Source: an uncultured Mycoplasmatota bacterium (GTDB taxonomy: Bacteria > Bacillota_I > Bacilli_A > RF39 > UBA660). From it: a stretch of 64,000 bases of DNA. The stretch lies in the NCBI GenBank assembly GCA_900554315.1, contig USGP01000001.1, positions 36,902 through 100,901 of the forward strand, given 5' to 3'. The notes beneath the pieces are model-generated. The model did no database searches and was not told the origin of the DNA. It saw nothing but the letters and a program-made list of their open reading frames with translations. Below, piece by piece: positions 39,858-51,436 of this stretch; position 1 is the stretch's first letter, and each line of letters opens with the position of its first letter. Position numbers and translations under genes: made by a program.

Positions 39858-40778
39858 ATGAAAAAATGTATCATTATAATGAATCCGGAAAGTGGAAAAG
39901 TAAAAAGTTTATCTAGTAAAAAAGAGTTTTATGATGTATTAAGAAAACATGGTTATGATGCAGAAATTAGATATACAACAGGTCCTAAAGATGCTATTAG
40001 AATTGTAGAAGAATTAGAAGATGATGTAGACTTAGTAATTAGTGCTGGCGGAGATGGAACCTTAAATGAAGTAGTAACAGGAGATATTCATAGAGATAAA
40101 AGACTAGTATTAGCTAATCTTCCAATGGGAACAACAAATGATGTTGCGAATATGTATGGATATACAAAAGATTATAAAAAGAACTTAGAATTATTATTGA
40201 ACGGAGTTAGAAAAAAAGTAGATGTTTGTTATATTGATGAAACTCCATTTGTCTATGTAGCATGTTTAGGAGATTATATTGATATGGCATATAATACACC
40301 GAGAGACTTAAAGAAAAAATACGGAAAAATTGCCTATATATTATATGGACTAAGACAATTAAGAAATAGTATTCATCGTTATCATGTAAAATATTCTGTC
40401 GATGGAGTAGAACATGAAGGGGAGTATTCCTTCTTCTTTATTACCAACTCTTCTCGTGTAGCAGGGGTAGACGATATTTATTATGATGTAAAAATGGATG
40501 ATAATATGTTTGAAGTAGCTTTAGCCAATCCCAAAACCAAACCCGATATTTTAAGAATGTTAGTTCAAGTAACGATGAAAGATGTAAAAGAAGTACCAGG
40601 TATTACATATTACCAAACAAGTGATTTTGAAATAGAATTTTTAGATAAACCAAAAACATCTTGGTGTATTGATGGAGAAGAATACCAATCATCTGGACCA
40701 AAATTTACATTTAAAGTAGATCAAAAAGTAAAAATGTTAATTCCTAAAACAAATGCCAAAAAACTTTTTGATGAGTAG
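39858..40778 (+). CDS. dagK: diacylglycerol/lipid kinase (DagK/YegS family)
   Basis: CIIIMNPESGK, ISAGGDGTLNEVV and PMGTTNDVA motifs. 306 aa. SD AAGGAG. Confidence 0.85.
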   Translation: MKKCIIIMNPESGKVKSLSSKKEFYDVLRKHGYDAEIRYTTGPKDAIRIVEELEDDVDLVISAGGDGTLNEVVTGDIHRDKRLVLANLPMGTTNDVANMYGYTKDYKKNLELLLNGVRKKVDVCYIDETPFVYVACLGDYIDMAYNTPRDLKKKYGKIAYILYGLRQLRNSIHRYHVKYSVDGVEHEGEYSFFFITNSSRVAGVDDIYYDVKMDDNMFEVALANPKTKPDILRMLVQVTMKDVKEVPGITYYQTSDFEIEFLDKPKTSWCIDGEEYQSSGPKFTFKVDQKVKMLIPKTNAKKLFDE

Positions 40779-41671: not shown

Positions 41672-42502
41672 ATTCAAAAGTTTTATACATGTCGTTATGA
41701 CAGAGCTTTTAAAGAAGTCTTTATGAATGAAAATAATAAAGACTTATTGATTTATTTATTAGAAGGAATATTAAAGGTAAAAATATCGCAGGTAGAATAT
41801 CTAAATTTAGAACAAAATGTAGGTAATGTTTATGTCAAAAGAAAACACTTTGATTTGTTCTTAAAAACAGATATTGGAAATATTCAAGTAGAAGTAAATG
41901 CATCTAACTTAAATTATGTAAAGCCAAGAAACATGTCTTATTTGTGTGCTATTTATTCTCATCATGTATTAAAAGGACAAAACTATGATCAAGAAACGAA
42001 AATAATACAGATTAATTTTAGTTATGGCTTAAAAGATAGTGAAGATATGAGAATATATTATGTACAAGATAAGAGTCAGAAGAAGTATGTGGAAAACTTT
42101 ACCATTTATGAAATCAATATGGAAAAATATATAAACTACTGGTATACTAAAGACAAAGAAAAGATAGAAGAAAATAAAGAAATCATAATGTTAGATTTAG
42201 AGCCAGAAGAATTAAAACTTCTATCCCAAAAAGATAGGATGGTGAAAAAATACATGAGTGAAATAGAAAAGATAAATAGCGATCCAGATTTTTTCGAATA
42301 CATGAGTGCCGAAGAAGATAATAGAAAGATAGAAAATTCTATTCGAAAAGAGATGACAGAAAAAGGATTAAAAGAAGGTAAAGAGCAAAGTCAAAAAGAA
42401 ATTATAATAACTATGTTTAAGCAAGGCTTAGATATAGAAACAATACAAAAATATACCAATATAAATCGTGATTTTATTTTAAATTGTATCAATAAAAAAT
42501 AA
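41672..42502 (+). CDS. Rpn-family recombination-promoting nuclease / PD-(D/E)XK putative transposase (start probably non-canonical ATT 41672; first ATG at 41723)
   Basis: The frame is open from 41660. AGGAGGTG at 41659-41666 sits 5 nt before ATT 41672. The upstream residues IQKFYTCRYDRAFKEVF match the conserved N-terminal YD.xFK.xF motif of this family. The C-terminal KEGKEQSQKEIIITMFKQGLDIETIQKYT is typical. Confidence 0.65.
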   Translation: MQKFYTCRYDRAFKEVFMNENNKDLLIYLLEGILKVKISQVEYLNLEQNVGNVYVKRKHFDLFLKTDIGNIQVEVNASNLNYVKPRNMSYLCAIYSHHVLKGQNYDQETKIIQINFSYGLKDSEDMRIYYVQDKSQKKYVENFTIYEINMEKYINYWYTKDKEKIEENKEIIMLDLEPEELKLLSQKDRMVKKYMSEIEKINSDPDFFEYMSAEEDNRKIENSIRKEMTEKGLKEGKEQSQKEIIITMFKQGLDIETIQKYTNINRDFILNCINKK

Positions 42503-42526: not shown

Positions 42527-42618
42527 GTAAAGAATGTCGATGAAAACTTTTGACATCATTTGTCGAATCACTAGAAAGTATCTATAAAAAGTCTTATATT
42601 GATACCAGAGGTGATATC

Positions 42619-42954
42619 ATGCTAGATATTGATCAACAAATTACAAGAGGAATAACATTTATTAGATTGGAGGGAGAACTGACTACCACAAATTATTATC
42701 GATTTGCTGAAGAAGTTAATTATCTACTATATAGTCAAGGAATGTTGGCATATGTGTTTAACTTAGAAAATATAAAAAAGTTAGATAATAACTTACTAGG
42801 CAGTTTACAAAATAAATTGACAGAAATTTTTTTAAAATGTGGAACTGTAGCGTTTTGTGGTCTATCAGAAAAAGTAAAAAAGAAAATAGGGAAAAGAGAT
42901 GCACTTTATTTTATAAAAGAGGAAAGAGAAGTATTTCAATATATCAATATATAA
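42619..42954 (+). CDS. spoIIAA: STAS-domain protein, SpoIIAA-like anti-anti-sigma factor lacking the phosphorylatable serine
   Basis: ATG 42619 follows GAGGTGA. 111 aa. IRLEGELTTTNYYRFAEEV...FNLENIKKLDNNLLGSL aligns by eye with SpoIIAA IRLTGELDHH...LNLEDLSFMDSSGLGVI. Sits directly upstream of the SigF-like gene. Confidence 0.55.
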   Translation: MLDIDQQITRGITFIRLEGELTTTNYYRFAEEVNYLLYSQGMLAYVFNLENIKKLDNNLLGSLQNKLTEIFLKCGTVAFCGLSEKVKKKIGKRDALYFIKEEREVFQYINI

Positions 42955-42964
42955 AGGAGAGAAC

Positions 42965-43600
42965 ATGGAAAACATATTGGAATATGAAGATTTAATTTAT
43001 AAAATGATTGGAAGATACCATCATTTTGATAAAGAAGATTTATACCAAGTAGCAATGATTGGCTTAATGAATGCGAAAAAAAACTATAATCCAGATGAAA
43101 ATACTAAGTTTTCAACTTATGCTTACTACTATATTTTAGGAGAAATTAATAATTATATATCCTCCTGTAACCCAGTGAAGATAGGCAAGGATTTACTTCG
43201 ACTGAATAGTAGTCTAAATAAAGCCAAAGAAATAATGCGACAAAGATTGGAAAGGGAACCAACAACAGAAGAACTGTCTATCTTTTTAGAAGTACCACAG
43301 GAAAAAATAGAAGAAGCAGAACTTGCTACTAGACAAGTAGAAAGTCTAGATTATGCTTATGAAGAAGAACAATCTACACTATATAATAGTTTTGGAGAAC
43401 AAGATCAAAATATGACAGAAGAGGTATTAGACTTACGACAAGCTATTTCTTCACTACCACCTGAAGAACAACAACTTATTATTGCTAGATACTATGAAGG
43501 ACTAACACAGCAAGAAACTAGTAGGACATTAGGTATGAGCCAAGTACAAGTATCAAGAAAAGAAACAAAAATATTACAAAAATTAAAGACAACACTATAG
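42965..43600 (+). CDS. sigF: sporulation-type sigma-70 family sigma factor (SigF/SigG/SigB group), short form
   Basis: 211 aa. DLYQVAMIGLMNAKKNYNPDENTKFSTYAYYYILGEI (region 2) and LGMSQVQVSRKETKILQKLK (region 4.2), as in SigF. The gene order (STAS protein, sigma factor, spoVA) matches spoIIA-spoVA of B. subtilis. Confidence 0.7.
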   Translation: MENILEYEDLIYKMIGRYHHFDKEDLYQVAMIGLMNAKKNYNPDENTKFSTYAYYYILGEINNYISSCNPVKIGKDLLRLNSSLNKAKEIMRQRLEREPTTEELSIFLEVPQEKIEEAELATRQVESLDYAYEEEQSTLYNSFGEQDQNMTEEVLDLRQAISSLPPEEQQLIIARYYEGLTQQETSRTLGMSQVQVSRKETKILQKLKTTL

Positions 43601-43614
43601 TTGTCTATTTTTAT
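43587..43614 (+). terminator. intrinsic terminator
   Basis: AGACAAC-ACTATA-GTTGTCT hairpin spanning the stop codon, followed by ATTTTTATT. Confidence 0.6.
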
Positions 43615-43697: not shown

Positions 43698-44153
43698 ATG
43701 GTGATAATAATGAAAAACGGAAGATATGAACGAATTGCGAAAGACCATCAAGCCCCAACCAATAAATTACAAAATGCTTGTATTGCTTTTATTATAGGTG
43801 GAATAATTGGATTAATTGGAGAAGGAATCATAGAGCTATTGTGCCAGTATATTCATATATCAAGAAATAATGCAGGAACTATTATGATAGTAATCATGAT
43901 ATTTATTTCCTCTCTTTCTACTGCTTTAGGATTTTTTGATAAATTAGTAACAAAATTTAAATGTGGTTTATTAATACCAATTACAGGATTTGCTCATTCC
44001 ATGACGAGTGCCGCCTTAGATTATAAAAAAGAAGGACCAATTTATGGAATAGGTGCTAATATTTTTAAACTAGCTGGTTCAGTAATCTTATATGGTATTA
44101 TTGCAGCATGGTTTTTTGGAATGATTCGATACTTGTTAGGAGGTAGAATATGA
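43698..44153 (+). CDS. spoVAC: stage V sporulation protein AC
   Basis: NACIAFIIGGIIGLIGEGI, PITGFAHSMTSAAL and GANIFKLAGSVILYGI motifs. Alternative start ATG 43710. Confidence 0.85.
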   Translation: MVIIMKNGRYERIAKDHQAPTNKLQNACIAFIIGGIIGLIGEGIIELLCQYIHISRNNAGTIMIVIMIFISSLSTALGFFDKLVTKFKCGLLIPITGFAHSMTSAALDYKKEGPIYGIGANIFKLAGSVILYGIIAAWFFGMIRYLLGGRI

Positions 44154-45142
44154 CTTTTACATACGATGATGTCTATGTTCAAGATACAGCAACTATAGCA
44201 GGGCCATATGAAAAAAAAGGACCATTAAAAAAGTATTTTGACAAAACTTTCAATGATTTATATTTTGATGAAGATTCTTGGGAAAAAGCAGAAATAAAAA
44301 CTGTCAAAGAAAGTTTAAAATTACTACATAAAAAAGTAGGCTTAAAGAGAAAAGAAGTAGATGTAATTTTAGGAGGAGATTTATTAAATCAAATAACAGC
44401 AACAACCTATGGTTCCTATAACTTTTCAAAATGTTTTTTAGGCTTATATGGAGCATGTTCTACATCTGTAGAAGCCATGATTTTAGGCAGTGTATTAATT
44501 GATTCACAAAAAGCAAAAAATGCCATTGTTACCGTTTCATCACATAACATGGCTGCTGAAAAACAATTTAGAAATCCTACAGAATATGGAGCACCAAAAC
44601 CTAAAAGTGCGACTTTTACTGCAACAGGAAGTGCCTCTTTATTGTTAACACATGAAAAGACAGATATAAAAGTAGAATCTTCTACCATAGGACGAATTAT
44701 AGACTTTTGTCAAAATGATCCTAATGACATGGGAAAAGTAATGGCTCCAGCAGCAATCGATACTATAAAAAGACATCTAAAAGATTTAAATAGAAAACCA
44801 GACTACTATGATTTGATTGTAACAGGAGATTTGGGACTATATGGAAAAGAAATTGTAAAAGACTATATGTTAGAAGAATATAATATTGACTTATCTAATA
44901 ACTACAATGACTGTGGGGTAATGTTATATGATTTAAAAGAACAAGAAGAGTGTCTAGCTGGAGGTAGTGGACCAGTATGTAGTGCACTAGTAGCATTTGG
45001 TTATATATTCCATGAAATGAAAAAGAAAAATCTAAAAAGAGTTCTAATTGTCGCAACTGGTGCCTTATTCTCTCCAACTATGGTCTATCAAAAAGAAAAT
45101 ATTTATTCTATTGCCAATGCAATTAGTTTGGAGGTAATCTAA
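44150..45142 (+). CDS. spoVAD: stage V sporulation protein AD (thiolase-like fold)
   Basis: 330 aa. IAGPYEKKGPLKKYFD, LGGDLLNQ, GLYGACST and SGPVCSA motifs. 4-nt overlap with spoVAC. Confidence 0.85.
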   Translation: MTFTYDDVYVQDTATIAGPYEKKGPLKKYFDKTFNDLYFDEDSWEKAEIKTVKESLKLLHKKVGLKRKEVDVILGGDLLNQITATTYGSYNFSKCFLGLYGACSTSVEAMILGSVLIDSQKAKNAIVTVSSHNMAAEKQFRNPTEYGAPKPKSATFTATGSASLLLTHEKTDIKVESSTIGRIIDFCQNDPNDMGKVMAPAAIDTIKRHLKDLNRKPDYYDLIVTGDLGLYGKEIVKDYMLEEYNIDLSNNYNDCGVMLYDLKEQEECLAGGSGPVCSALVAFGYIFHEMKKKNLKRVLIVATGALFSPTMVYQKENIYSIANAISLEVI

Positions 45143-45492
45143 TGTTACTTGTAAATTCTTTCTTATTTTGTGGATTTGTATGTATGATTGCCCAAATTAT
45201 TTTAGATAACACAAAATTAACACCAGGACATATTACTAGCATGTTTGTTGTAATAGGAGCATTTCTAGACTCTTTTAGTTTTTATGACAAAATCATTAAA
45301 GTAGTAGGTGGCGGAGCCTTATTACCGATTACTAGTTTTGGACACTCCCTAATTCATGGTGCTTTAGCCAAAGCAAACGAATATGGAATTTTAGGTATCC
45401 TAATGGGCATGTTTGACTTAACTGCAACAGGTATCACATCAGCAATTATCTTTGCTTTTCTATTTACTTTAGTATTCAAGCCCAAAAATTAA
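45142..45492 (+). CDS. spoVAE: stage V sporulation protein AE (SpoVAEb type)
   Basis: 116 aa. TPGHITSMFVVIGAFLD, GGGALLPITSFGHSLIHGA. 1-nt overlap with spoVAD. Confidence 0.85.
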   Translation: MLLVNSFLFCGFVCMIAQIILDNTKLTPGHITSMFVVIGAFLDSFSFYDKIIKVVGGGALLPITSFGHSLIHGALAKANEYGILGILMGMFDLTATGITSAIIFAFLFTLVFKPKN

Positions 45493-49392: not shown

Positions 49393-50340
49393 ATGGAAGA
49401 ACAACAAATAAAAAAATATAGAAACAAATTAATTGTATATGAATCTATAGCAAAAAACTTCAGTATAGCATCAATTTTTATATTATGTACAATGATTACT
49501 TCTAACTTAATTCCAGTAGTGATGATGAACGGATGGCAAGGACCACTAAGTGATAAATTCACGATGTCATCATGCATTGCAGCAATTGCATTCATGATTT
49601 TATTCTTATTTCTATGCCTTCTATTTAACTTAATTTTTGATCATTCAAAATACTGGGATAAGATTCCAAAAGAAGAAAAGAGAAAAGTAGAATTATACAA
49701 CTATTCCCAACTAAGTAACTTTCAAAAAATAATTACCAAAATCCCATTTATTTTTACAATAATATTTGCTATTGTAACAGCATACATTGGAATTGAAATA
49801 ACAAAGTTAGATAAAAGTAATATAATACATAGAAGATATGAAATCGTAAACAAAACTTTAAAAATATATCAAGAATATCATCCAGAGTTAAAAAATATTT
49901 ATAGTTTAGACAACCAAAATAAAACATATGAACCATCTTATGCTAATATTTTATTGGATAATAATATAGAAGTTTCATTAGACTTTAACAAGACTAAAAA
50001 AATGATAGAAGACGTAGAATATAGTATGACAACAGAAAATCTTACCGAAGAAAATTTAGGAGAAGTAATAGATTTAATGATAGATCAATTACCAATAATA
50101 CATAATGATATAAAAAATTTAAAAAACTATTTAAAAACACCAAATATCACAAAAGTAAATATTGTATTTACAGACCAAGAAAAAAATGACTTGATAGAAA
50201 TAATTAAAAAAATAATAAATAAAGAAACAGAATACGAATCAATAGAAATACCAATAAACAATATTCCTAATTTGTATTGTCAAAGAACATTTGTTGAAAT
50301 AGACAATAATAAAATAACATTTACAACTTCAATAGAATAA
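49393..50340 (+). CDS. hypothetical membrane protein
   Basis: 315 aa. Three hydrophobic spans in the N-terminal half and an Asn/Ile/Lys-rich soluble C-terminal half. Confidence 0.5.
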   Translation: MEEQQIKKYRNKLIVYESIAKNFSIASIFILCTMITSNLIPVVMMNGWQGPLSDKFTMSSCIAAIAFMILFLFLCLLFNLIFDHSKYWDKIPKEEKRKVELYNYSQLSNFQKIITKIPFIFTIIFAIVTAYIGIEITKLDKSNIIHRRYEIVNKTLKIYQEYHPELKNIYSLDNQNKTYEPSYANILLDNNIEVSLDFNKTKKMIEDVEYSMTTENLTEENLGEVIDLMIDQLPIIHNDIKNLKNYLKTPNITKVNIVFTDQEKNDLIEIIKKIINKETEYESIEIPINNIPNLYCQRTFVEIDNNKITFTTSIE

Positions 50341-50599: not shown

Positions 50600-51436
50600 A
50601 TGCTACTTTATAAAAATACATTTGATAATATAAAGACAGAAAATCATAACTTTCCTGTAGAAGACCAATATTATGCTACTGATACAATGGCAATTGTTGC
50701 AGATGGTATTACAAGAGATCCAGTAGGAGTTTTTGATTTATCAAGTATTAGCAACGAAGAATTTATTAAAAAATACCCACGCCCTAGTGGAGCAGAGCTA
50801 GCAGCAAAAACAATTTGTGACACGTATAAAAAATCTTCAGGCACTCCAAAAGAACGATTAATTCGATGCAATCAAGCGGTAAAAGCATTAAATGACAGAT
50901 ATATTGCCACATGTGATTATTTACAAAATGATTATTATGGAGCTGTTGCTGCTGCAGTAATCATACAAGAAAACACTCTATATTATGCCTATATCTGTGA
51001 TTGTGGGGTTATTATTTATGACAAAGAAGGAAATATAAAATTTCAAACAGAAGATGATAAAACAAAATATAGTGATTCCTATATCAACAAAATAGGCATT
51101 CCTTGGGATTTACCAGAATCAAGAGTGATTGTAAGAAGAGATTATAGAAACAATCCAGAAAACATCCAAGATGGTCATTGCGTATCTTATGGAGCCCTAA
51201 CAGGAGAAGACACCGCAATTCAGTTTATTCAAAGTGGAACACAACCATTATCCTCAGGAGACCTAGTGGTCGTATATAGTGATGGTATCAGTAACTTTCT
51301 TCATGAACCAAATTTTATTAATAAACTTTTAAATTTCAATAGCCAAGAATTAGAAGAATATATGAATACTCAAGCATCAACCGACTATAGTAAATATGGA
51401 AAAGAGAAAACTTTAGTATTACTAAAAAAAGAATAG
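50600..51436 (+). CDS. PP2C-like (PP2C_2-type) putative protein phosphatase
   Basis: 278 aa. MAIVADGITRDP, GAVAAAVII..NTLYYAYICDCG and VVVYSDGISNF resemble the PP2C-fold motif order. A candidate promoter TTGTAT-18-GATAAT lies at 50550-50579. Confidence 0.5.
   Translation: MLLYKNTFDNIKTENHNFPVEDQYYATDTMAIVADGITRDPVGVFDLSSISNEEFIKKYPRPSGAELAAKTICDTYKKSSGTPKERLIRCNQAVKALNDRYIATCDYLQNDYYGAVAAAVIIQENTLYYAYICDCGVIIYDKEGNIKFQTEDDKTKYSDSYINKIGIPWDLPESRVIVRRDYRNNPENIQDGHCVSYGALTGEDTAIQFIQSGTQPLSSGDLVVVYSDGISNFLHEPNFINKLLNFNSQELEEYMNTQASTDYSKYGKEKTLVLLKKE

What the first reader, a model, noticed from the sequence alone, without database searches (positions are those of the whole stretch)
42619..43600. 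spoIIA-like operon without an anti-sigma kinase; the STAS protein lacks the phospho-serine
Established knowledge: endospore formers encode spoIIAA-spoIIAB-sigF, and in B. subtilis the spoVA operon lies directly downstream.

Seen in sequence: the same neighbourhood occurs here (STAS protein, SigF-like sigma factor, terminator, spoVAC/AD/AE). However, only 10 nt separate the STAS gene from the sigma gene, so no SpoIIAB-like GHKL kinase is encoded between them. Where SpoIIAA has ...FMDSSGLG (Ser58 is the phosphorylated residue), this protein reads ...KLDNNLLG. The sigma factor is also short (211 aa).

Inference: the partner-switch that controls forespore sigma activity may be rewired here, or the kinase may be encoded elsewhere.
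Basis: partly seen in the sequence, partly recalled or inferred. Interest (0 to 1): 0.6.

Follow-up and report, generated by a model that had tools for sequence, protein, structure and literature searches.

The report
Sigma-F operon without its kinase switch
This uncultured gut bacterium, like its whole order, keeps the first spore-specific sigma factor and a small SpoIIAA-like partner but lacks the kinase, the phosphatase and the phospho-serine of the textbook switch, so sigma-F must be controlled another way.

Summary
A 111-aa STAS gene (42619-42954) lies 10 nt upstream of a 211-aa SigF-type sigma gene (42965-43600). A terminator and spoVAC/AD/AE follow.

No SpoIIAB, SpoIIE, Fin or CsfB was found in this 93%-complete, 1.28-Mb genome. 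The gap is not an assembly artefact:
- SpoIIAB and SpoIIE each scored 0 of 201 genomes (99 genera) of the same order.
- All 56 SpoIIR-positive genomes of other families in the class carry SpoIIAB.

The STAS protein descends from SpoIIAA by profile, fold and synteny. Asn57 sits where B. subtilis has Ser58, and that column varies among relatives. The gene is under purifying selection (dN/dS about 0.2). It has nevertheless been deleted in several sigF-keeping genera.

Spo0A boxes upstream are conserved order-wide. Spo0A, SpoIIR, SpoIIGA-SigE, SigG, SigK, SpoIVA and SASP persist.

My best reading is that sigma-F is set by Spo0A-driven transcription without a phospho-switch, and that the orphan STAS is a dispensable modulator whose partner is unknown.

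A 2024 paper lists spoIIAB and spoIIE as missing in order RF39. This scan has reported the same module at least nine times on other genomes. I class it as a new variant of a known system.

The parts
42535..42567 (+). Spo0A-box cluster. Exact TGTCGAA at 42561-42567 (-58 from the ATG), 6/7 box TGTCGAT at 42535-42541, TTTGACA at 42549-42555.
   Evidence: Boxes at these positions recur in the genus (up to 3 exact copies), in other genera of the order and before canonical spoIIAA of outgroups. TGTCGAA occurs only 49 times in the 1.28-Mb genome.
42572..42600 (+). Sigma-A-type promoter-like site: TAGAAA, 17 nt, TATATT.
   Evidence: Both elements lie in columns conserved across 20 genus genomes (cTAGaAA ... 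TTTATAgTG).
42619..42954 (+). Orphan SpoIIAA-like STAS gene (111 aa). Asn57 replaces the phospho-serine.
   Evidence: Pfam STAS 28.2 bits; TIGR02886 only 30.7 bits against a cut-off of 114.75. The family profile hits SpoIIAA 1AUZ/1TH8 at E about 2e-15. AF2 pLDDT 84; Foldseek top hits are SpoIIAA chains, TM 0.83. dN/dS median 0.21.
42955..42964 (+). 10-nt spacer carrying the sigma gene's Shine-Dalgarno (AGGAG). There is no room for a spoIIAB gene.
   Evidence: The spacer is 8-15 nt in 21 genus genomes, 9-28 nt in other genera, and 389-448 nt (holding spoIIAB) in three of the four outgroups; the fourth also carries spoIIAB between the two genes.
42965..43600 (+). Divergent SigF orthologue (211 aa).
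   Evidence: Regions 2, 3 and 4 present; SigF model 146.5 bits against a cut-off of 321. Best BLAST hit is outgroup SigF (119-128 bits), above its own SigG (79 bits). Synteny dacF-STAS-(IIAB)-sigma-spoVAC. dN/dS 0.13.
43587..43606 (+). Intrinsic terminator hairpin overlapping the sigF stop, followed by a T-run.
43698..45492 (+). spoVAC (43698-44153), spoVAD (44150-45142) and spoVAE (45142-45492).
   Evidence: SpoVAD 418-426 bits and SpoVAE 137.9 bits exceed their cut-offs. SpoVAC scores 145.9 bits.

Best explanation
This is what remains of the spoIIA partner-switch operon after an ancient loss, across the whole order, of the anti-sigma kinase SpoIIAB and the phosphatase SpoIIE. What is left is a two-gene, Spo0A-controlled operon.

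Proposed sequence of events:
1. Spo0A~P binds the conserved 0A boxes and activates a weak sigma-A-type promoter (inferred from conserved motifs).
2. One mRNA encodes the STAS protein and, 10 nt downstream, sigma-F, and ends at the hairpin (read from the sequence).
3. No known anti-sigma factor is encoded (SpoIIAB, Fin or CsfB). Sigma-F is therefore presumably active as soon as it is made, and its timing is set mainly by transcription (inferred from absence).
4. Sigma-F then drives the retained forespore-to-mother-cell cascade: spoIIR, then SpoIIGA/SigE, then SigG and SigK (inferred by homology and a conserved forespore-type promoter on spoIIR).

The STAS protein is a SpoIIAA descendant that can no longer be a phospho-switch. 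It is still under selection, with a newly fixed helix-alpha2 motif (QNKLTEIFLxCG), yet it is dispensable. I read it as an accessory, stoichiometric modulator whose partner is not identified.
For: Absence of the switch components:
- In this genome: SpoIIAB, SpoIIE, Fin and CsfB.
- Across the order: SpoIIAB 0/201 and SpoIIE 0/201 genomes, 99 genera, all at least 90% complete.
- Control: all 56 SpoIIR-positive genomes of 8 other families carry SpoIIAB, against 0 of 43 SpoIIR-positive genomes in this family.

Descent from a canonical operon: the outgroups carry spoIIAA(FMDSSG[IL]G)-spoIIAB-sigF-spoVAC, with dacF upstream in one of them.

Phospho-site: Asn in this genome. Across 36 orthologues the column holds N/K/Q/E/I/L/M/F/H, with one Ser and one Thr.

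Conserved promoter: the 0A-box promoter is kept in the genus, the order and the outgroups, and sits directly before sigF where STAS is gone.

Selection and retention: STAS dN/dS is 0.21 and sigF 0.13. STAS was found in 151/201 genomes and sigF in 178/201.

Dispensability of STAS: it is absent next to an intact sigF in 13 further loci from 10 genera that I read directly, plus the four loci L070/L071 and L073/L074. L070/L071 look like a clean deletion of the ORF when compared with L069.

The rest of the cascade is present: Spo0A 288 bits, SpoIIGA next to sigE, SpoIVA 696 bits, SigE/K/G, SpoIIR 25/25, SASP 67 bits. The spoIIR promoter TGAATA-N18-CAYTATA is conserved in 21 genomes.
Against: - Nothing was tested experimentally. 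The organisms are uncultured and spore formation has never been observed. A machine-learning predictor gave RF39 MAGs 0% sporulation probability (PMC12536801).
- In B. subtilis, unrestrained sigma-F is harmful and not compartment-specific, so some unseen control is likely.
- Purifying selection on STAS, and the conserved exposed residues on helix alpha2, point to a specific partner that this explanation does not name.
- A non-GHKL anti-sigma factor, or phosphorylation by a Hanks-type kinase at another residue, was not excluded.
- Absence calls rest on HMM searches of MAGs.
Confidence: 0.6

Rival explanations
1. The STAS protein has itself become the sigma-F regulator. It would bind sigma-F (or RNA polymerase) directly through its re-modelled helix-alpha2 face and hold or chaperone it, giving a two-protein switch without a kinase.
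For: - The two genes are tightly coupled (8-28 nt) in every STAS-bearing locus I read except one, where metK sits between them.
- STAS is under purifying selection.
- The most conserved stretch, QNKLTEIFLxCG, lies on alpha2/beta4, the face that contacts SpoIIAB in canonical SpoIIAA. The structural role of that face is recalled from PDB 1TH8, not tested here.
Against: - STAS was deleted repeatedly while sigF stayed about 90% identical (L069 against L070), and no sigF residue change tracks the loss.
- One genome (G061) keeps STAS but has no sigF, sigG or spoIIR.
- No STAS protein is known to bind a sigma factor directly (my own knowledge).
- No complex model could be made with the tools on hand.
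Confidence: 0.2
2. An unrecognised, non-GHKL anti-sigma-F factor exists elsewhere in the genome. The STAS protein would antagonise it without phosphorylation, as M. tuberculosis RsfA does with the kinase-dead UsfX.
For: - Phosphorylation-independent anti-anti-sigma factors are known (from memory). UsfX-RsfB (8IH8) is among the fold matches.
- Selection on STAS implies a partner.
Against: - No candidate was found. The only GHKL hits are four long histidine kinases, and Fin and Gin are absent.
- No conserved extra gene sits next to the pair.
- Lineages that lost STAS would then be left with an unopposed anti-sigma factor.
Confidence: 0.12
3. Sporulation is defunct in this order, and the STAS-sigF pair is a slowly decaying relic with no current function.
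For: - The genomes are small and host-associated.
- Some members are clearly decaying: G063 has an internally deleted sigF, and G061 and G071 have lost sigF and sigG.
- STAS has been lost repeatedly.
- SpoIIIAE was not found.
- SpoMAG gives RF39 a 0% sporulation probability (PMC12536801).
Against: - dN/dS is 0.13-0.21.
- Promoters are conserved at the base level for the operon and for spoIIR.
- sigF is in 178/201 genomes and SpoIIR in 42/51 sampled genomes of the family. Spo0A, SpoIVA (696 bits), SpoVAD, SASP and SigE/G/K are intact.
Confidence: 0.07
4. The missing kinase is an artefact: spoIIAB lies in the unassembled 7% of this MAG.
For: The genome is 93% complete and in 51 contigs.
Against: - The 10-nt spacer leaves no room at the locus.
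- SpoIIAB scored 0/201 genomes of the order, several of them in 3-10 contigs.
- The phospho-site is lost in step with the kinase.
Confidence: 0.01

Closest known systems
Canonical spoIIA operon and partner switch (SpoIIAA-SpoIIAB-sigma-F with SpoIIE) of Bacillus subtilis, Geobacillus and the clostridia (PDB 1AUZ, 1TH8, 1L0O)
   Same: - Same ancestry and position: (dacF)-STAS-sigF-spoVA synteny, and Spo0A boxes upstream.
- Same STAS fold (TM 0.83 to SpoIIAA in 1TH8).
- SigF-type sigma factor with regions 2-4.
- Downstream spoIIR/SpoIIGA/SigE logic is retained.
   Different: - No SpoIIAB and no SpoIIE.
- Ser58 is replaced (Asn here) and the column is not conserved.
- The DSSGLG motif is replaced, and a new motif, QNKLTEIFLxCG, is fixed on helix alpha2.
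- STAS is dispensable in several genera.
- Both proteins score far below the equivalog cut-offs.
Mycobacterium tuberculosis UsfX with RsfA/RsfB (anti-sigma-F that is not an active kinase; RsfA regulated without phosphorylation; PDB 8IH8)
   Same: An anti-anti-sigma STAS protein that acts without being phosphorylated by its partner. This shows that STAS modules can work by stoichiometric binding.
   Different: UsfX, a GHKL-fold anti-sigma factor, is still present there, whereas no GHKL anti-sigma factor exists here. It is not a sporulation system. The resemblance is recalled from memory plus a fold match, not tested.
KO-level report that order RF39 lacks spoIIAB and spoIIE (Microb Genom 2024, PMC10868615)
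   Same: The same two genes are reported as reduced or absent. [quoted passage not shown]
   Different: That paper is a gene-presence table. It does not describe the retained non-phosphorylatable SpoIIAA, its selection, its repeated loss, or the conserved Spo0A promoter. That this genome belongs to RF39 is inferred, not shown.

Membership tests
SpoIIAA (anti-sigma-F antagonist, TIGR02886) | STAS fold (beta-beta-alpha-beta-alpha-beta-alpha-beta-alpha) | tested here: met
   AF2 pLDDT 84, pTM 0.76. Foldseek top five hits are SpoIIAA chains, TM 0.82-0.83.
SpoIIAA (anti-sigma-F antagonist, TIGR02886) | Score above the equivalog cut-off | tested here: not met
   30.7 bits against 114.75.
SpoIIAA (anti-sigma-F antagonist, TIGR02886) | Phosphorylatable Ser (B. 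subtilis Ser58) in the D-S-S-G-L-G motif | tested here: not met
   Asn57 in a gapless profile alignment to 1AUZ. The column is variable among 36 orthologues.
SpoIIAA (anti-sigma-F antagonist, TIGR02886) | First gene of the spoIIA operon, upstream of sigF, under Spo0A control | tested here: met
   Synteny with canonical outgroups. Conserved 0A boxes.
SpoIIAA (anti-sigma-F antagonist, TIGR02886) | Partner kinase/anti-sigma factor SpoIIAB encoded in the genome | tested here: not met
   for this genome. 0/201 in the order.
SpoIIAA (anti-sigma-F antagonist, TIGR02886) | Activating phosphatase SpoIIE encoded in the genome | tested here: not met
   for this genome. 0/201 in the order. Present in the four SpoIIAB-positive outgroups.
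Sporulation sigma factor SigF (TIGR02885) | Sigma-70 regions 2, 3 and 4, with SigB/F/G as the best subfamily | tested here: met
Sporulation sigma factor SigF (TIGR02885) | Score above the equivalog cut-off | tested here: not met
   146.5 bits against 321.45. The genome's own SigG scores 272 bits on the SigF model.
Sporulation sigma factor SigF (TIGR02885) | Orthology by position and by best match | tested here: met
   Same slot as sigF of canonical outgroups. 119-128 bits to outgroup SigF against 79 bits to its own SigG.
Sporulation sigma factor SigF (TIGR02885) | Drives the forespore regulon (spoIIR, sigG) | tested here: inconclusive
   A forespore-type promoter TGAATA-N18-CAYTATA is conserved upstream of spoIIR in 21 genomes. 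SigG could read the same motif, and there are no expression data.
Partner-switching module (STAS + GHKL anti-sigma kinase + PP2C phosphatase) | All three components present | tested here: not met
   Only the STAS component is present. A soluble PP2C_2 protein exists at 50600-51433, but there is no kinase and no phospho-site.

The most novel reading that the evidence does not exclude
An entire order of gut Bacilli runs an endospore-type developmental cascade in which the first forespore sigma factor has no anti-sigma factor at all. Cell-specific activation would then be achieved by a mechanism not yet described. One option is that the orphan SpoIIAA descendant acts directly on sigma-F or RNA polymerase. 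Another is that Spo0A threshold and gene position alone suffice. Either way, the SpoIIAA/AB/E switch would not be essential for endospore formation.
Probability: 0.3. Interest if true: 0.8.

Novelty: new variant of a known kind. Interest (0 to 1): 0.55.

Why it matters
The SpoIIAA-SpoIIAB-SpoIIE switch is the textbook example of how asymmetric division is turned into cell-specific transcription. [quoted passage not shown]

Here a large, widespread gut order keeps sigF, spoIIR, sigE, sigG, sigK, spoIVA, spoVA and SASP under selection but has none of the switch's enzymes. It therefore offers a natural experiment. Either sigma-F can be compartmentalised without the switch, or a new regulator awaits discovery.

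There is also a practical point. Gene-content predictors of sporulation that rely on spoIIAB will score these abundant gut bacteria as non-sporulating, perhaps wrongly.

Tried and rejected
- No multimer predictor is available, and structure prediction returns no coordinates or PAE. A STAS-sigma-F complex could therefore not be modelled. I considered a read-through fusion and dropped it because the interface could not be inspected.
- I looked for sigma-F residues that change when STAS is lost and found none.
- I looked for alternative anti-sigma factors and found none:
  - Fin gave only sub-threshold hits inside ORFs of 343-497 aa.
  - Gin/CsfB gave nothing.
  - An HMM built from the four nearest SpoIIAB proteins, run against all 5343 frames with filters off, hit only four histidine kinases.
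- A second spoIIA-like locus near sigG was ruled out.
- The supplement of PMC10868615 held neither genome names nor gene rows that would fix the taxonomy. The name RF39 therefore stays inferred, from that paper's description and from earlier scan notes.
- A redox disulfide between the two conserved cysteines (C74 and C80) seems unlikely from their places in the model (end of alpha2, end of beta4). I did not measure the distance.
- I did not run a mirror-tree or co-evolution test. I judged it too weak to decide anything.

Full report
**The locus.** The window is C1:36902-100901 of a 1.28-Mb, 51-contig, 29.7% G+C genome estimated 93% complete. The 111-aa ORF at 42619-42954 has a good Shine-Dalgarno sequence, and its orthologues all begin at the same Met-Leu. 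Its stop is followed by 10 nt (AGGAGAGAAC) and then the ATG of a 211-aa ORF at 42965-43600. A hairpin with a T-run lies at 43587-43606. spoVAC, spoVAD and spoVAE follow. The first ORF is a STAS domain: Pfam scores 28.2 bits, but the SpoIIAA equivalog model scores only 30.7 bits against a cut-off of 114.75. The second ORF has sigma regions 2, 3 and 4. It scores best on the SigB/F/G and SigF models, at less than half of the equivalog cut-off.

**Is the kinase elsewhere?** No.
- TIGR01925 (SpoIIAB) and HATPase_c_2 match only four long frames of 421-762 aa, which are histidine kinases.
- An HMM built from the four nearest true SpoIIAB proteins, run with filters off over all 5343 frames of the genome, found the same four and nothing small.
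- There is only one STAS gene and no SpoIIE. The only weak hit is a soluble 278-aa PP2C_2 protein at 50600-51433.
- Fin and CsfB/Gin, the other known anti-sigma-F/G factors, are also not found.
- The genome does hold SigA, SigE (next to SpoIIGA), SigK and a canonical SigG. No STAS or kinase gene lies beside sigG.

**Is this an assembly gap?** No.
- SpoIIAB scored 0 of 201 and SpoIIE 0 of 201 genomes of the same order (99 genera, all at least 90% complete).
- In a 400-genome sample of the class, all 56 SpoIIR-positive genomes outside this family also have SpoIIAB. None of the 43 SpoIIR-positive genomes inside the family does.
- Four outgroup genomes that I read directly carry the canonical spoIIAA (FMDSSG[IL]G)-spoIIAB-sigF-spoVAC arrangement, one of them with dacF upstream. 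All four also have SpoIIE.
- The loss is therefore old, clean and confined to this order within the sample.

**What are the two proteins?** The STAS protein is a SpoIIAA descendant.
- A profile of 26 orthologues hits SpoIIAA of B. subtilis and Geobacillus best (E about 2e-15, no gaps over residues 2-92).
- The AlphaFold model (pLDDT 84, pTM 0.76) has the STAS topology. Its five best PDB neighbours are SpoIIAA chains from SpoIIAB complexes, at TM 0.82-0.83.
- Synteny agrees.
- Asn57 falls on Ser58, at the N-cap of helix alpha2. Among 36 orthologues this column holds N, K, Q, E, I, L, M, F or H, with one Ser and one Thr. It is not a conserved site.
- The helix behind it has instead acquired a strongly conserved motif, QNKLTEIFLxCG.

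The sigma factor is the SigF orthologue by position and by best match: 119-128 bits to outgroup SigF against 79 bits to its own SigG. Its N-terminal shortening is shared with kinase-bearing outgroups, whose SigF is about 207-241 aa.

**Is the STAS gene alive?** Yes, but it is dispensable.
- Within the genus (21 genomes) protein identity is 57-72% for STAS and 69-82% for SigF. Median dN/dS is 0.21 and 0.13 respectively, and close pairs give 0.03-0.24.
- Order-wide, the STAS profile is found in 151/201 genomes (80/99 genera) and SigF in 178/201.
- In every STAS-bearing locus I read, the STAS gene lies 8-28 nt upstream of sigF. The exceptions are G021, where metK is inserted between the two genes, and G025, where they overlap.
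- Thirteen further sigF loci from ten genera, and the four loci L070/L071 and L073/L074, have no STAS ORF at all. There sigF follows the 0A-box promoter directly, with unrelated genes upstream.
- L069 (with STAS) and L070 (without) share nearly the same promoter, ribosome-binding site and about 90% identical SigF. This points to a clean recent deletion.
- Losses that are polymorphic within genera g32, g34, g36 and g45 imply several independent events.
- Conversely, G061 has lost sigF, sigG and spoIIR but keeps a STAS gene.

**Regulatory DNA.** Upstream of the STAS gene the window has an exact Spo0A box (TGTCGAA, 42561-42567), two near-boxes, a weak -35 (TAGAAA) and a good -10 (TATATT). The heptamer occurs only 49 times in the whole genome. 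In the genus these elements are conserved at the base level although the flanking genes differ, with up to three exact boxes. The same box at the same distance is found in other genera and before canonical spoIIAA in outgroups. spoIIR, the key sigma-F output in B. subtilis, is present in 25/25 sampled genomes of the order. In the genus it carries a conserved forespore-type promoter, TGAATA-N18-CAYTATA. The sigG upstream region looks similar. Spo0A (288 bits), SpoIVA (696 bits) and an alpha/beta SASP (67 bits) are intact.

**Interpretation.** Three things are shown. The phospho-switch cannot exist here. The operon is still wired to Spo0A-type control. The rest of the sigma cascade is kept under selection. 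From these I infer that sigma-F is governed chiefly by when and how much it is transcribed. I also infer that the orphan SpoIIAA is a non-essential modulator acting by binding rather than by phosphorylation. Its partner is unknown. Direct action on sigma-F is attractive, but the repeated loss of STAS without any change in SigF weakens that idea. A decaying-relic reading is contradicted by dN/dS and by promoter conservation. Individual small-genome members, such as G063, G061 and G071, are nevertheless clearly losing sporulation.

**Prior knowledge.**
- A 2024 gene-content study lists spoIIAB and spoIIE among genes reduced or absent in the uncultured order RF39 and predicts different regulation.
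- A 2025 predictor treats spoIIAB as universal among predicted spore-formers and gives RF39 zero sporulation probability.
- The relatives of this genome are deposited as uncultured Bacilli or 'Tenericutes' gut MAGs, which fits RF39. I could not verify the GTDB name.
- This scan has already reported the same kinase-less module at least nine times on other genomes.

**Limits.** All absences are HMM-based and come from MAGs. No complex model was possible. Whether these bacteria form spores is unknown.

Noticed in passing
window 50600-51433 (+): Soluble 278-aa PP2C_2-family phosphatase (Pfam 29.4 bits, cut-off 24) with no membrane domain. It is the only frame in the genome that the SpoIIE model touches, and only weakly. 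Its substrate is unknown. The STAS protein has no phospho-site for it.
   Followed up: partly
window 41723-42502 (+): PD-(D/E)XK transposase-family (PDDEXK_2) ORF lies directly upstream of the STAS promoter. The upstream neighbour differs in almost every relative, while the promoter itself is conserved.
   Followed up: partly
G000 whole genome; relatives G001-G040: SpoIIIAE (TIGR02829) was found in only one of the 41 genomes searched, the SpoIIAB-bearing outgroup G038. It was missing from this genome, from all 25 genomes of the order and from the other three SpoIIAB-bearing outgroups. The SpoIIIA channel may be absent or very divergent in these lineages.
   Followed up: partly
L092 (G061:C24) 1010-1357: A 0.7-Mb relative with no sigF, sigG or spoIIR still encodes a 115-aa STAS orthologue, with Thr-Ser at the old phospho-site (LIDTSGII). 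A pilin-like gene follows it. This hints at a sigma-F-independent role or a very recent loss.
   Followed up: partly
L090 (G063:C52) 1339-2266: SigF with an internal deletion (135 aa, region 2 joined to region 4), followed by what looks like a fused spoVAC/spoVAE gene. Sporulation appears to be decaying in this genome.
   Followed up: no
L059/L086 (G021:C28): A metK gene is inserted between the STAS gene and sigF, which breaks the otherwise tight pair.
   Followed up: no
L070, L071 (sheep and other gut MAGs): The diacylglycerol-kinase-like gene, which in the window lies at 39858-40778, directly precedes sigF. The STAS ORF is precisely deleted, while its promoter and ribosome-binding site now serve sigF.
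   Followed up: yes
G000:C24 upstream of 10436; L094-L113: spoIIR carries a conserved TGAATA-N18-CAYTATA forespore-type promoter in 21 genus genomes. The sigG upstream region (C7, about 50230-50270) has a similar TGAATA ... CATAAC arrangement.
   Followed up: partly
window 42838-42858 (STAS residues 74-80): Two cysteines in a CGxVxxCG motif. C80 is ancestral. C74 is fixed only in the clade that has the QNKLTEIFL motif. Its meaning is unknown.
   Followed up: no
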